Both the position numbers and the translations under genes were made by a program. From sequence record PP925842.1: a DNA stretch of 64,000 nucleotides; one strand, 5' to 3'. This DNA comes from Escherichia phage KookSpook. Within the stretch, counting starts at the first letter, position 1, and every line of letters begins with the position of its first letter. A model generated the notes under the pieces. The model was not told the DNA's origin, ran no database searches, and saw only the letters and a list, made by a program, of their open reading frames with translations. Shown piece by piece: positions 58,088 through 60,733 of this stretch.

Positions 58088-58250
58088 TCTAGAAAATATG
58101 CTTATAGAGCAATGGAACTCTGGATATAATGCTGGAGTATCTGCTTGTATTGCTGGATTAGACATGCTTATTAAACAAGAAAGGGTACGTCCTGAAGAAG
58201 CAATTTTACTCCGAGATATTATCGAGGGATTTAAGCGGGGGGTAGTATAA
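58056..58250 (+). CDS. hypothetical protein
   Basis: 64-aa ORF. Confidence 0.4.
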   Translation: MDFLNQNLKSNLENMLIEQWNSGYNAGVSACIAGLDMLIKQERVRPEEAILLRDIIEGFKRGVV

Positions 58251-59068
58251 TGCGTAGGCTAATTATTATTAGTGGTGCAGGTTTAAGTGTTGAAAGCGGC
58301 GTACGCGCATTTCGTACTGACTCCAGTACTGGTAAAGCGATGTGGGACGAGTTTAATATTGAAGAAGTATGCAATATTCATACCTTTTTAGGAGATTGCT
58401 ACCACAAAACTCATGAGTTCTATAATAAACGCCGTGAAGAACTAGAAACTGTTGAACCTAATCTTGCCCACCTTCGTATTGGTGAGTGGTATAAACGGTA
58501 TCCAAATCAAGTAGTAAACCTTACTACCAACGTTGATGACCTTATTGAGCGTGCTGGCGTTCCACATAGTGACATTCTGCACATTCATGGATATTTAAAA
58601 GAGGTTGTTGTAGCTGATAGCTACAATAGTAGCAATAAACGGATTATTAATGTAGGGTACAATTCTATTGACCCAGATGATTATAAATGGGTTAAACCTA
58701 ATGTAATCTTCTTTGGGGAGCATGCTCCAGCATATGCAGAAATGTACAATGTTTTTGATGGTATTACCAATCAAGATATGATCATTGTGGTTGGTTGCTC
58801 TAACCAAGTAATTAACTTCTATTGGGAATTATTTCCTGTTCTTAATTTGACTGCTGCCAAATTAATGGTAGTTAACTACTATGATAGTGCCCTAGCGGCA
58901 GAGCCAGGCTATCAAGGTATGACTCGTAGTGAGATGTACCAGTTGGAAGAACGTGGTGTCCCTTACTGGAGTAAAGGTGCGGTGGATGCTTTCAGTGACC
59001 CTGATTTTATTGCTCGTGTGGAAGCTCATTTAGAGGATAGACCTTATGTGCCAGGAAGCAATAAATAA
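58250..59068 (+). CDS. Sir2-family (sirtuin-like) NAD-dependent enzyme
   Basis: 272 aa; N-terminal GAGLSVESGVRAFR matches sirtuin NAD-binding motif GAGIS..SGIP.FR. Confidence 0.65.
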   Translation: MRRLIIISGAGLSVESGVRAFRTDSSTGKAMWDEFNIEEVCNIHTFLGDCYHKTHEFYNKRREELETVEPNLAHLRIGEWYKRYPNQVVNLTTNVDDLIERAGVPHSDILHIHGYLKEVVVADSYNSSNKRIINVGYNSIDPDDYKWVKPNVIFFGEHAPAYAEMYNVFDGITNQDMIIVVGCSNQVINFYWELFPVLNLTAAKLMVVNYYDSALAAEPGYQGMTRSEMYQLEERGVPYWSKGAVDAFSDPDFIARVEAHLEDRPYVPGSNK

Positions 59069-59188
59069 TGAATGGGATATTTTTATAACCGAATCTGGTA
59101 TTTGGTGTTATAGGTTTGCCTATAGATTTGCTAGTGTAAAAGAAAGATTGGGCAATACATATAAAATTATCTATACTACGGAGGATAT

Positions 59189-59404
59189 ATGGTTATCCTC
59201 CGGAGAGGGGGGAAAACAAATATGTCCATAGTTAAATCTGTGTATACACACCCTGATGATATATTTGTATGGGCGGATGGTAGTTGGTGTTATCGCTGTG
59301 AACTATGGGAAATGGATTATAAATCTGATGACTATGGTGTCATATATACTGATACGGTTGAGTATGATAAGTTCTTAGAAAGGAACAAAAATGGAAATAA
59401 GTAA
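59189..59404 (+). CDS. hypothetical protein
   Basis: 71-aa ORF. Confidence 0.4.
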   Translation: MVILRRGGKTNMSIVKSVYTHPDDIFVWADGSWCYRCELWEMDYKSDDYGVIYTDTVEYDKFLERNKNGNK

Positions 59405-59897
59405 TACTCCGATTATTTTTCTAGACATTGATGGGGTGCTCAATTCTAGCATCTCTCACCACCATGCACCTGACGATGAAAAGATCTTCTTCGGGGGTGA
59501 TTGGGTTTTTAAACCGCTTCTCAAGGCTTTTCAGGATTTTATTCGTCCCTCTTCAATAATGATTGTTGGGGTATCTTCATGGTTTTCTGTTAAAAATGAG
59601 ATGGAGAACGTTCGGATTATGACCGGATTAGGTCTTATCGATCGTTTTTTAGGTACAACGGATTTTACTGGTGGTGGATTATCTAGGGGTAATTCTGTAC
59701 TTAGGTTTGTAGAAAAACACAAACTTAAGCACTGGTGTGTATTGGATGACGCTGGCGCTATGATGTATCAGTATCCTACAGTTATAGTCAATGGTAAGAC
59801 TGGTATAAATCTTCAAGATCTAATGGCTGCTCGCTATATGCTGGAGTTTAGTCCAGAGCTTGAGATGTGTAAATCATTACAACAATTTAAGGTATAA
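59391..59897 (+). CDS. HAD-superfamily hydrolase-like protein
   Basis: 168 aa; N-terminal FLDIDGVLN (DxDGV) motif. Confidence 0.55.
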   Translation: MEISNTPIIFLDIDGVLNSSISHHHAPDDEKIFFGGDWVFKPLLKAFQDFIRPSSIMIVGVSSWFSVKNEMENVRIMTGLGLIDRFLGTTDFTGGGLSRGNSVLRFVEKHKLKHWCVLDDAGAMMYQYPTVIVNGKTGINLQDLMAARYMLEFSPELEMCKSLQQFKV

Positions 59898-59899
59898 GT

Positions 59900-60328
59900 A
59901 TGTTTAATAATGTATTTTTTAAGGAAACTAATCCGGTACTGGTCAATTTTTGGCGAACTCTTCCTAATAACTTGTATAATGAAGCTATTAACTCCTTAAA
60001 GGTTTGGTGTGAAAATAATGATATTTCTTTTGCATTTAAGGATGATATAGAAGAAACTTCATGCATGGGACTAGTAGTACAACTAGAGGATGGTGTGGAG
60101 GAGATTATTGGCTGGAAAGAGTTAGATGAAATGGGGTTAGTCTTTGCATTAAACTATAAACTATTTATGCCTGTTAAGCATCGAATTGTAATTAACTATA
60201 AGACTAGTGAATCTCCTGGTTTTCAGGTTAATGAACAGTATGGTTGGTCTTATTCACCAGAAGAAGTAAATGAGGGTATCCAAAAACTTCGCCGTTTTGG
60301 TTATCAAATTCCGGGTTTAACTGCCTAA
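59900..60328 (+). CDS. hypothetical protein (paralog A)
   Basis: 142 aa; C-terminal ...GMGLVFALNYKLF...IPGLTA similar to next gene. Confidence 0.5.
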   Translation: MFNNVFFKETNPVLVNFWRTLPNNLYNEAINSLKVWCENNDISFAFKDDIEETSCMGLVVQLEDGVEEIIGWKELDEMGLVFALNYKLFMPVKHRIVINYKTSESPGFQVNEQYGWSYSPEEVNEGIQKLRRFGYQIPGLTA

Positions 60329-60334
60329 GGAGGC

Positions 60335-60733
60335 ATGATGGAACAAGTATATTGGCGTCAGATCGATCCTAGTTTAGTGGAGCGTGCTGAAGGATTGCTC
60401 GCACGCTGGCTTGGAGCTGAGAAAGTTAGTGTAGTATTTCCCTTTATGGATATAACAGATTCCAGTACTGGAATCTTTGTAGATGAAGATGAGATGGATG
60501 GGTGGGAAGCCGACTGGAATGAATTATCAGGTATGGGGTTGATTGTTGCCCTTAATTTCTCTGTATTCCATCCACGTGGTTTAGCTATTACGCGTGACCC
60601 AGAAACTGGAGAATCCCATTATCTTTTGCAAGTAGAAGATGATATTTGGGAATACACCGAAGATATTCTTGAAGAAGCTAAAGATCAATTAAATCGCATT
60701 GGGATTTACATCCCAGGTCTGAATGATAATTGA
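60335..60733 (+). CDS. hypothetical protein (paralog B)
   Basis: 132 aa; C-terminal ...GMGLIVALNFSVF...IPGLND; tandem duplicate of previous gene. Confidence 0.5.
   Translation: MMEQVYWRQIDPSLVERAEGLLARWLGAEKVSVVFPFMDITDSSTGIFVDEDEMDGWEADWNELSGMGLIVALNFSVFHPRGLAITRDPETGESHYLLQVEDDIWEYTEDILEEAKDQLNRIGIYIPGLNDN

What the first reader, a model, noticed from the sequence alone, without database searches (positions are those of the whole stretch)
58250..60733. Sir2-like protein clustered with a HAD-like hydrolase and a tandem pair of paralogs
A sirtuin-like protein (GAGLSVESGVRAFR) is followed by a small ORF, a HAD-type DxDGV protein and two tandem paralogous genes sharing a C-terminal ...GMGL[IV]xALN...IPGL block. 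Sir2 domains act in NAD-centred bacterial immunity; a phage-encoded Sir2 with an adjacent phosphatase-like enzyme could be an NAD-metabolism or counter-defence module.
Basis: partly seen in the sequence, partly recalled or inferred. Interest (0 to 1): 0.6.

Follow-up and report, generated by a model that had tools for sequence, protein, structure and literature searches.

The report
T5 phage sirtuin–phosphatase early operon
This is the long-annotated early operon of T5-like phages: an intact but zinc-less CobB/SIRT5-type sirtuin, an RNA-repair-type HAD phosphatase and two pairs of small paralogous proteins. It is already predicted in print to be an NAD-dependent RNA-repair module, is not a defence-type NADase, and has never been tested biochemically.

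Summary
Window 58250-60733 holds a Sir2 gene, two small ORFs (not one), a HAD gene and two DUF7415 paralogs, all on the + strand. They sit in one promoter-to-terminator unit (about 57215-60781) just downstream of nrdD.

The locus is the ortholog of phage T5 genes T5.100-T5.107 (about 85% nucleotide identity), annotated since 2004-2005. Iyer et al. 2022 (PMC9503650) already described the sirtuin plus "Swiss-army-knife" HAD neighbourhood in T5-like phages and predicted NAD-dependent RNA repair.

What I add:
- The sirtuin is catalytically intact and closest to class III enzymes (CobB, SIRT5). It keeps their Y-x-x-R anion-binding pair, lacks the four zinc cysteines, and matches no defence model.
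- Its closest non-T5 relative (58% identity) sits beside an RNA ligase, a cyclic-phosphate-processing domain and a kinase.
- Across T5-family phages the HAD is dispensable, but the small protein and DUF7415 stay next to the sirtuin.
- Elsewhere DUF7415 is fused or adjacent to nucleotide-metabolism enzymes.
- In a published T5 knock-down screen, T5.107 (a DUF7415 protein) was one of only 17 genes scored "Fit". Sir2 and HAD were not.

Verdict: an already known feature with unproven function. Moderate interest.

The parts
57180..57216 (+). Rho-independent terminator of nrdD (AGCCGGGT / ACCCGGCT stem plus T-run). It separates nrdD from the operon.
   Evidence: Read from the sequence. T5 has an annotated terminator at the equivalent place.
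57215..57243 (+). Early promoter of the operon: TTGCTT, 17 nt spacer, TATAAT. It is followed by the ribosome-binding site GAGGAG (57260-57265).
   Evidence: Read from the sequence. T5 records annotate an early promoter at the equivalent place.
57272..57511 (+). 79-aa leader ORF of unknown function (phrog_7953). It is present in Epseptimavirus (phage Stitch) but has no match in the T5 locus.
57508..57888 (+). T5.100 ortholog, 126 aa, unknown function (phrog_11748).
57863..58087 (+). T5.101 ortholog, unknown function (phrog_5236).
58056..58250 (+). 64-aa ORF of unknown function (phrog_5827). Its stop overlaps the Sir2 start codon.
58250..59068 (+). Sirtuin, T5.102 ortholog, 272 aa. Class III-like, catalytically intact, without the zinc-binding cysteines.
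   Evidence: Pfam SIR2 E 1.2e-24. Best PDB sequence match is E. coli CobB 1S5P, E 1.4e-17. AlphaFold2 model pLDDT 91.4. Foldseek top hits are CobB, Af1-Sir2 and SIRT5. Invariant G9-A10-G11, S13, F21, R22, C41, Y58, R61, N94, D96 and H113.
59046..59231 (+). Small protein 1, T5.103 ortholog, 61 aa (phrog_5116).
59222..59404 (+). Small protein 2, T5.104 ortholog, about 60 aa from the internal ATG (the ORF opens at 59189). It is a paralog of small protein 1 (phrog_5116).
59391..59897 (+). HAD phosphatase of the "Swiss-army-knife" RNA-repair type, T5.105 ortholog. Motif I DIDGV and motif IV LDDAG are intact.
   Evidence: Pfam PF18143 E 2.2e-20. phrog_1818. Motifs read from the translation.
59900..60328 (+). 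DUF7415 protein a, T5.106 ortholog, 142 aa, two DUF7415 repeats. The conserved His and Arg of the domain are lost.
60335..60733 (+). DUF7415 protein b, T5.107 ortholog, 132 aa, two DUF7415 repeats plus a C-terminal helix and an IPGL tail. It keeps the domain's conserved N74, H79, R87 and S94. Its T5 ortholog was scored "Fit" in the CRISPRi-ART knock-down screen.
60757..60781 (+). Terminator-like hairpin (ACCGAGTC / GACTCGGT plus TTTT) that ends the operon. The next promoter, TTGCAC-17-TATAAT, lies at 60825-60853.
   Evidence: Read from the sequence. T5 has an annotated terminator and promoter at the equivalent place.

Best explanation
**Identity (shown).** This is the T5.100-T5.107 early operon of a T5-like phage (Demerecviridae).

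**Mechanism (inferred).** It is most likely an accessory NAD-dependent module that heals damaged RNA ends, above all tRNA cut by host ribonucleases.
- The sirtuin binds NAD+ and an anionic group through the invariant Tyr58/Arg61 pair.
- It uses Asn94, Asp96 and His113 to transfer ADP-ribose onto that group. This would release nicotinamide and remove a 2'-phosphate as ADP-ribose cyclic phosphate. The chemistry matches KptA/Tpt1 on an unrelated fold, and it is formally analogous to the two-step sirtuin deacylation reaction.
- The SAK-type HAD phosphatase would remove remaining terminal phosphates, or dephosphorylate the ADP-ribose phosphate by-product.
- Ligation would be left to a host ligase such as RtcB, because no phage RNA ligase was found in the window.

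The two phrog_5116 proteins and the two DUF7415 proteins are the constant companions of the sirtuin in this phage family. Their roles are unknown. DUF7415 may instead belong with the neighbouring nucleotide-metabolism genes.
For: **Identity**
- 85% nucleotide identity to T5 and the same gene order.

**Intact NAD-dependent transferase**
- Pfam SIR2 match.
- Residue-by-residue alignment to CobB. Phage C41, Y58, R61, V95 and H113 fall on CobB A76, Y92, R95, I131 and H147. I checked the numbering against the mutations named in the PDB titles.
- These residues are invariant in 58 homologs of 48-91% identity.
- Confident model, pLDDT 91.4.

**RNA-repair context in three independent phage groups**
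- rV5-like phage naam has a sirtuin 58% identical to this one. Its gene order is Rnl1 RNA ligase (PF09511), cREC cyclic-phosphate domain (PF20274), Sir2. A P-loop kinase and a calcineurin-like phosphoesterase lie next door.
- Jumbo phage fHe-Yen9-04 has a 2H phosphoesterase, Sir2, and a Nudix+cREC fusion.
- T5-like phages have the SAK-type HAD.
- The same inference is published (PMC9503650, section 3.7.3).

**Other support**
- The phage carries 24 tRNA genes.
- Sir2 and HAD were "Not Fit" in the CRISPRi-ART screen of T5 on a laboratory host. This fits a conditional, accessory role.
Against: - There is no biochemical evidence for any sirtuin acting on RNA. The function is inferred only from gene neighbourhood.
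- By homology the default activity is protein-lysine deacylation. Y-x-x-R is the signature of desuccinylases and demalonylases (established knowledge for SIRT5 and CobB).
- No RNA ligase, cREC, polynucleotide-kinase-like or 2H homolog was found in the 64 kb window. None is annotated in the first 63 kb of T5.
- The HAD is absent from the same operon in Klebsiella (Riker) and Pectobacterium (DU_PP_V) members of the family. It is therefore not an obligate partner.
- The 2H neighbour in the jumbo phage scores best against the anti-CBASS Acb1 family. The "repair" neighbourhoods could equally be degraders of nucleotide signals.
- phi92-like and KVP40-like relatives show no informative neighbours.
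Confidence: 0.4

Rival explanations
1. Protein deacylase. The sirtuin acts like CobB or SIRT5 and removes succinyl, malonyl or acetyl groups from lysines of host or phage proteins early in infection, retuning metabolism or enzyme activity. The HAD and the small proteins would be unrelated accessory genes.
For: - The best sequence and structure matches are protein deacylases: CobB, Af1-Sir2 and SIRT5.
- All catalytic residues and the class III Y-x-x-R pair are invariant.
- An earlier in-silico paper on the related Vibrio-phage sirtuins argued for deacetylation of Acs (PMC5107563).
Against: - It scores far below the NCBIfam CobB cut-offs: 100 bits against 243, and 88 against 320.
- It forms a phage-only clade.
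- It lacks the zinc module that shapes the peptide-binding cleft in canonical sirtuins.
- Recurrent linkage to RNA-end and cyclic-phosphate enzymes is not explained.
Confidence: 0.28
2. Degrader or converter of immune signals or NAD-derived metabolites. The sirtuin and phosphatase would process ADP-ribose-derived or cyclic-nucleotide molecules made by host defences such as Thoeris or CBASS, rather than RNA.
For: - In the jumbo-phage relative, the adjacent 2H protein matches the Acb1 anti-CBASS family (PF23474, E 2.6e-17).
- A Nudix+cREC fusion and NadV are also next door there.
- The genes are early and dispensable in a defence-poor laboratory host.
Against: - No known sirtuin acts on such signals.
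- T5-like phages lack the 2H and Nudix partners in this operon.
- No PADLOC or other anti-defence family matches.
Confidence: 0.12
3. Nucleotide-supply module. The operon belongs functionally with the flanking nrdA/nrdB/nrdD/thy/frd cluster. The HAD would be a nucleotidase, DUF7415 a nucleotide-binding or adaptor domain, and the sirtuin a regulator of, for example, ribonucleotide reductase.
For: - The operon lies directly downstream of nrdD in four Demerecviridae genera.
- A stand-alone DUF7415 protein sits between nrdD and nrdG in two T4-like genera.
- Class I ribonucleotide reductase (RNR) subunits are among the commonest neighbour families in a census of IMG/VR loci (3 large-subunit and 2 small-subunit matches among 101 neighbour proteins from 32 loci).
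- DUF7415 is fused to a dATP/dGTP pyrophosphohydrolase and to thymidylate kinase.
- T5.107 was "Fit" whereas Sir2 and HAD were not.
Against: - A terminator and promoter separate the operon from nrdD.
- The HAD matches the RNA-repair-type family, not a nucleotidase family.
- The sirtuin's relatives outside Demerecviridae are not next to RNR genes.
- DUF7415 contexts are heterogeneous: P2-like replication regions and ASCH fusions.
Confidence: 0.12
4. NADase for host shut-off or superinfection exclusion. The sirtuin would simply hydrolyse NAD+, as defence Sir2 domains do.
For: Sir2 domains can be NADases (literature).
Against: - It belongs to the canonical PF02146 family, not the defence-type Sir2, and has no PADLOC match.
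- From general knowledge, T5-like phages depend on an NAD-dependent DNA ligase.
- Relatives of these phages carry an NAD-rebuilding pathway, NARP3 (PMC13464706). Wholesale NAD destruction would be self-harming.
Confidence: 0.05

Closest known systems
Phage T5 genes T5.102-T5.107 (Sir2-like/cobB, T5.103, T5.104, T5.105, T5.106, T5.107)
   Same: Orthologous locus. Same gene order, about 85% nucleotide identity, 88% amino-acid identity for Sir2, and promoter and terminator in the same places.
   Different: The leader genes are mosaic. This window carries a 79-aa and a 64-aa ORF that are found in Epseptimavirus (phage Stitch) but not in T5.
Sirtuin plus 'Swiss-army-knife' HAD neighbourhood of 'Escherichia phage SP15'-type phages (Iyer, Burroughs, Anantharaman and Aravind 2022, PMC9503650, section 3.7.3)
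   Same: Exactly this neighbourhood. SP15 is among the T5-like hits for the HAD (93% identity) and for DUF7415. The published prediction is RNA repair with the sirtuin acting like KptA.
   Different: The passages of that paper returned by my term searches do not mention the phrog_5116 pair or the DUF7415 pair (the Figure 5f legend itself was not retrieved). They also do not mention that the HAD is missing from the operon in other Demerecviridae.
E. coli CobB / human SIRT5 (class III sirtuins)
   Same: Best sequence and fold match. Same NAD loop, Asn/Asp/His catalytic set and Y-x-x-R pair.
   Different: Only about 24% identity. It lacks the four zinc-binding cysteines, falls below the CobB equivalog cut-offs, and forms a phage-only clade.
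KptA/Tpt1 RNA 2'-phosphotransferase
   Same: Proposed to work alike: NAD-dependent removal of an RNA 2'-phosphate. In other phages it sits in similar company (2H, Nudix, ligase). See PMC9503650 and PMC7824862.
   Different: No sequence or fold relationship. KptA belongs to the ADP-ribosyltransferase (ART) superfamily, whereas this protein has a Rossmann-fold sirtuin domain. It would be a functional analogue, not a member.
Defence-associated Sir2 NADases (ThsA, DSR1/DSR2, Sir2-HerA, SIR2-APAZ)
   Same: They share the Sir2 superfamily fold and use NAD+.
   Different: No PADLOC model matches. There is no sensor or partner domain. The gene is encoded by a lytic phage in an early operon, and its closest relatives are deacylases.
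Phage NAD reconstitution pathways NARP1, NARP2 and NARP3
   Same: NAD-centred phage functions. NARP3 occurs in T5-like phages (PMC13464706).
   Different: None of the NARP enzyme families is present in this operon. A sirtuin consumes NAD+ rather than rebuilding it.

Membership tests
Sirtuin (Sir2 family, Pfam PF02146) | Profile match above the curated cut-off | tested here: met
   87.7 bits against 24, covering profile positions 1-178 of 180.
Sirtuin (Sir2 family, Pfam PF02146) | NAD-binding GAGxS...FR loop and the catalytic Asn/Asp (QNID-type motif) and His (HG) | tested here: met
   G9-A10-G11, S13, F21-R22, N94, D96 and H113-G114 are invariant in 58 homologs. They align to the CobB residues.
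Sirtuin (Sir2 family, Pfam PF02146) | Four-cysteine zinc-binding module between the catalytic His and the FGE motif | tested here: not met
   That segment holds 0-2 cysteines in all 58 family members and none in the window protein. The model still shows beta strands there.
Sirtuin (Sir2 family, Pfam PF02146) | NAD-dependent deacylase or ADP-ribosyltransferase activity | not testable with these tools
   Needs an enzyme assay.
Class III sirtuins (CobB/SIRT5) | Y-x-x-R pair that binds an anionic acyl group | tested here: met
   FYNKRR aligns to CobB FYNARR (Y92, R95). Y58 and R61 are invariant. The role of the pair is established knowledge for SIRT5 and CobB.
Class III sirtuins (CobB/SIRT5) | Equivalog-level match to the CobB models | tested here: not met
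   NF001753 scores 100 bits against 243. NF040867 scores 88 against 320.
Defence-type Sir2 NADase systems (Thoeris ThsA, DSR, Sir2-HerA, pAgo-associated) | Match to defence Sir2 models, and a linked sensor or partner gene | tested here: not met
   None of the six proteins has a PADLOC match. The neighbours are HAD, DUF7415 and small ORFs.
HAD superfamily, 'Swiss-army-knife' RNA-repair type (PF18143) | Profile match above the cut-off, with intact motif I (DxDG[VT]) and an acidic motif IV | tested here: met
   73.9 bits against 27.5 over 138 of 139 profile positions. DIDGV and LDDAG are in the translation.
HAD superfamily, 'Swiss-army-knife' RNA-repair type (PF18143) | Phosphatase activity on RNA terminal phosphates | not testable with these tools
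   There is no solved homolog. The only PDB sequence matches were His-tag artefacts.
Phage sirtuin-centred RNA-repair neighbourhoods (Iyer et al. 2022) | A sirtuin of the phage clade adjacent to an RNA-end-processing enzyme | tested here: met
   The SAK-type HAD lies two small genes downstream in the same operon. Clade membership is shown by 58% identity to the rV5-type sirtuin, which sits next to Rnl1 and cREC.
Phage sirtuin-centred RNA-repair neighbourhoods (Iyer et al. 2022) | A complete repair pathway (end-healing kinase and RNA ligase) encoded by the same phage | tested here: inconclusive
   No homolog of the rV5-type Rnl1, cREC, kinase or phosphoesterase at E<=1 in the 64 kb window. The rest of the genome was not available, and a host ligase could serve.
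NAD reconstitution pathways (NARP1/2/3) | Adps/Namat, NadV/Nmnat or NadR/PnuC enzymes | tested here: not met
   No such Pfam domain in the operon's proteins, nor in ten other large ORFs of the window.
DUF7415 (PF24187) | Profile match above the cut-off | tested here: met
   106.4 and 93.1 bits against 27, with two repeats in each protein.

The most novel reading that the evidence does not exclude
The phage sirtuin is not a protein deacylase. It would be the first sirtuin that acts on a nucleic-acid phosphate, working as a Tpt1/KptA-like RNA 2'-phosphotransferase or RNA-end ADP-ribosyltransferase, with the Y-x-x-R pair repurposed to hold the phosphate. Separately, T5.107-type DUF7415 proteins would be a new small ligand-binding fold (conserved Asn/His/Arg/Ser, no solved structural relative). 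That fold would be needed for normal T5 growth and would be tied to deoxynucleotide supply.
Probability: 0.3. Interest if true: 0.75.

Novelty: already known. Interest (0 to 1): 0.38.

Why it matters
Sirtuins of this clade occur in about a thousand sequenced phage genomes: T5-like, rV5-like, phi92-like, jumbo and KVP40-like. None has been assayed. If the RNA-repair prediction holds, it would extend sirtuin chemistry from acyl-lysine to nucleic-acid phosphates. It would also identify a widespread phage answer to tRNA-cleaving defences, which matters for phage therapy because T5-like phages are common in cocktails.

The more immediate practical lead is T5.107. It is one of only 17 T5 genes with a knock-down fitness effect. 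It has no known function, a confident model with no solved structural relative, and repeated links to nucleotide-metabolism enzymes.

Tried and rejected
- **Defence-type Sir2 or counter-NADase reading.** Rejected. No PADLOC matches, and the closest folds are deacylases.
- **NARP-type NAD rebuilding.** No such domains in the operon or in ten other large window ORFs.
- **Phage RNA ligase, cREC, kinase or NrdG in the window.** phmmer found nothing at E<=1 (RNA-repair queries) or E<=10 (NrdG).
- **Fold assignment of the DUF7415 protein.**
  - BFVD returned only DUF7415 proteins.
  - The afdb50 library was unavailable.
- **PDB sequence search with the HAD.** It returned only His-tag artefacts.
- **Deeper homolog searches for DUF7415.** The word-indexed search found mostly T5-like sequences. 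The full HMMER scan found only 206 cluster representatives.
- **Literature.**
  - No paper mentions DUF7415.
  - No experimental paper on a T5-type phage sirtuin was found.
- **Consensus promoter/terminator scan.** It missed the operon's boundaries, so I read them directly from the sequence.
- **Neighbour census for DUF7415.** It is small (101 proteins from 32 loci) and heterogeneous. It supports only a weak-to-moderate association with nucleotide metabolism.

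
Full report
**What is there**

The window is a T5-like phage genome. The region 57200-61200 is 97.8% identical to GenBank MG065692 and about 85% identical to phage T5, and more than 400 T5-like records match it.

The finding's coordinates cover six co-oriented, tightly packed or overlapping ORFs:
- a 272-aa Sir2 protein
- two small ORFs of about 60 aa
- a 168-aa HAD protein
- two proteins of 142 and 132 aa

They correspond one-to-one to T5.102-T5.107. Four further small ORFs (57272-58250) precede Sir2.

Reading the sequence directly shows the whole set is one transcription unit:
- The nrdD stop codon is followed by a terminator hairpin.
- A TTGCTT-17-TATAAT promoter and a ribosome-binding site come next (57180-57271).
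- A hairpin and the next promoter follow the last gene (60757-60853).
- T5 carries promoter and terminator annotations at the equivalent positions.

Two corrections apply. There are two small ORFs, and they are paralogs of each other (both phrog_5116; shared DIFxxxxGxWCYR). The operon also begins about 1 kb upstream of the reported start.

**The sirtuin**

It matches Pfam SIR2 across the full profile.

Its best PDB sequence matches, in order, are:
- E. coli CobB (E 1.4e-17)
- Archaeoglobus Sir2-Af1
- SIRT5

An AlphaFold2 model built on 58 homologs is confident (pLDDT 91.4). Foldseek returns the same class III sirtuins first (CobB TM 0.72/0.83).

In the HMMER alignment, phage residues C41, Y58, R61, V95 and H113 fall on CobB A76, Y92, R95, I131 and H147. 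I verified the numbering against the mutant names in the PDB titles.

Across 58 homologs of 48-91% identity, several features are invariant:
- the NAD loop
- Y58 and R61
- N94 and D96
- H113

The enzyme looks active.

Three things set it apart from cellular sirtuins:
- No family member has the four zinc cysteines; the relevant segment holds 0-2.
- It scores far below the curated CobB cut-offs.
- Its homologs come from phage records, phage-sized contigs or short contigs of unknown origin.

It is not a defence-type Sir2. None of the six proteins matches any PADLOC model.

**The phosphatase**

The 168-aa protein matches PF18143, "HAD domain in Swiss Army Knife RNA repair proteins", at 73.9 bits. 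Motifs I (DIDGV) and IV (LDDAG) are intact. No solved homolog exists. RefSeq labels its T5 ortholog "Sir2", which is an annotation error. The error has propagated through phrog_18062.

**What is already known**

T5.102 has been annotated as Sir2-like/cobB since the first T5 genomes.

Iyer, Burroughs, Anantharaman and Aravind (2022, PMC9503650, section 3.7.3) defined a phage-specific sirtuin clade with three conserved neighbourhoods:
1. Jumbo phages: 2H, Nudix, cREC and PIN.
2. rV5-like phages: T4-type RNA ligase, cREC, kinase, MazG and calcineurin-like phosphoesterase.
3. "Escherichia phage SP15"-type phages: the Swiss-army-knife HAD.

They proposed that the sirtuin removes RNA 2'-phosphates as KptA does. 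SP15 is a T5-like phage that appears among my HAD and DUF7415 hits. The core of the finding is therefore published, as a computational prediction. I found no experimental study.

**Independent checks of that prediction**

- **rV5-like phage naam.** Its sirtuin is 58% identical to this one. The genes run Rnl1 (PF09511), cREC (PF20274), Sir2, with an AAA_33 kinase and a metallophosphoesterase adjacent.
- **Jumbo phage fHe-Yen9-04.** The sirtuin is flanked by a 2H protein and a Nudix(Nudt16-like)+cREC fusion, and NadV is nearby.

The association with enzymes that handle RNA ends or cyclic phosphates is therefore real and recurs in unrelated genomes. I regard this as the strongest evidence available, and I adopt the RNA-repair model as the best explanation at confidence 0.4.

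The chemistry is plausible by inference. Sirtuin catalysis has two steps. An oxygen nucleophile attacks C1' of the nicotinamide ribose, then the His-activated 2'-OH attacks. Tpt1 performs the same two steps with a phosphate in place of an acyl oxygen. The Y-x-x-R pair normally holds an anion.

**Evidence that cuts the other way**

- No RNA ligase, cREC or kinase homolog is in the 64 kb window, and none is annotated in the first 63 kb of T5.
- The 2H neighbour in the jumbo phage scores best against the anti-CBASS Acb1 family. The same neighbourhoods could be read as degraders of nucleotide signals.
- phi92-like and KVP40-like relatives have uninformative neighbours.
- By homology alone, a desuccinylase-like protein deacylase remains the default (rival, 0.28).

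**New observations on the companions**

Comparison across Demerecviridae:

| Phage | Gene content after Sir2 |
|---|---|
| T5 and Epseptimavirus Stitch | full set |
| Klebsiella phage Riker | small protein, DUF7415a, DUF7415b; no HAD |
| Pectobacterium phage DU_PP_V | a single T5.107-type DUF7415; no HAD |

The HAD is therefore an accessory of one subfamily. The DUF7415 protein is the constant partner, and the phrog_5116 small protein was detected in three of the four genera (not in DU_PP_V).

A full HMMER scan of 1.84 billion representatives finds only 206 clusters. Single-domain members share the motif WN..SE.GLI.RIN.EILHPLGLA..R.PETG.S, with invariant Asn, His, two Gly and Ser. T5.107-type proteins keep these polar residues, while T5.106-type proteins have lost the His and Arg.

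DUF7415 is found in these contexts:

| Context | Partner |
|---|---|
| Fusion | ASCH/DUF3850 |
| Fusion | dATP/dGTP pyrophosphohydrolase |
| Fusion | thymidylate kinase |
| Fusion | DUF5405 |
| Fusion | an HTH domain |
| Stand-alone | between nrdD and nrdG in Jiaodavirus and Bragavirus |
| Stand-alone | next to NudE in RB43 |
| Stand-alone | class I RNR subunits among the commonest neighbour families in 32 diverse IMG/VR loci |
| Stand-alone | next to the replication gene A protein in P2-like prophages |

This gives a weak-to-moderate link to (deoxy)nucleotide metabolism. In T5-like phages the operon also sits directly after nrdD.

**Experimental data**

Adler et al. 2025 (PMC11879866) ran a CRISPRi-ART knock-down screen of T5. 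In it, T5.100-T5.106, including Sir2 and HAD, are "Not Fit". T5.107 is one of only 17 "Fit" genes (p 0.02) and is listed as of entirely unknown function.

The screen is not very sensitive. The replication origin-binding gene T5.108 (annotated in RefSeq as replication origin binding) and the RNR genes are also "Not Fit". Dispensability of Sir2 and HAD is therefore only mildly informative, although it does fit a conditional, accessory role. The T5.107 result separates it functionally from the sirtuin and makes it the most interesting unexplained part of the locus.

**Verdict**

The feature is already known and already carries a published functional prediction. What remains open is the biochemistry of the sirtuin and the role of the DUF7415 and phrog_5116 proteins. 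Interest is moderate, at 0.38.

Noticed in passing
window 60335-60733 (T5.107 ortholog): Its T5 ortholog is one of only 17 genes scored "Fit" in the CRISPRi-ART screen (PMC11879866 supplement). It has no known function and a confident model with no solved structural relative. Its conserved Asn/His/Arg/Ser motif is lost in the adjacent paralog.
   Followed up: partly
L006 2980-3213 (Klebsiella phage ValerieMcCarty02) and L013 2959-3225 (Proteus phage PM2): A stand-alone DUF7415 protein sits between nrdD and nrdG in two T4-like genera. No NrdG homolog was found in this window, although nrdD is present.
   Followed up: partly
L001 5803-6309 (T5.105 in RefSeq NC_005859); several GenBank records: Propagated mis-annotations. 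The HAD protein is labelled "Sir2 (NAD-dependent deacetylase)". DUF7415 proteins are labelled "tail tube protein" or "exonuclease". In Pectobacterium phage DU_PP_V the sirtuin is labelled "tail assembly protein".
   Followed up: yes
window 29923-42409, minus strand: There are 24 tRNA genes. One is called tRNA-Ser with the odd anticodon ACT (42336-42409) and is probably a mis-called or tRNA-like gene. T5 also annotates several stable RNAs of unknown function in this region.
   Followed up: no
GenBank MG065692, MG065642, MG065646 and MG065654: The closest database record and several others are unannotated genomes named "Campylobacter phage". They are T5-like or rV5-like enterobacterial phage genomes, so the host label looks doubtful.
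   Followed up: no
window 57272-57511 and 58056-58250: The leader part of the operon is mosaic. It combines a T5-type gene (T5.100) with two small ORFs otherwise seen in Epseptimavirus (phage Stitch) and absent from T5.
   Followed up: partly
L015 2842-3288 (Yersinia jumbo phage fHe-Yen9-04): The 2H protein, annotated "RNA ligase" and lying two genes upstream of the sirtuin, matches the anti-CBASS Acb1 family (PF23474, E 2.6e-17). NadV lies about 2.5 kb upstream. This gives an alternative, counter-signalling reading of the "RNA-repair" neighbourhood.
   Followed up: partly
window 18312-19708 (minus strand) and 40695-41642 (minus strand): There are two adjacent calcineurin-like phosphoesterases (T5.034/T5.035 orthologs). 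There is also an SPFH/Band-7 protein that RefSeq annotates as a lipoprotein in T5.
   Followed up: no
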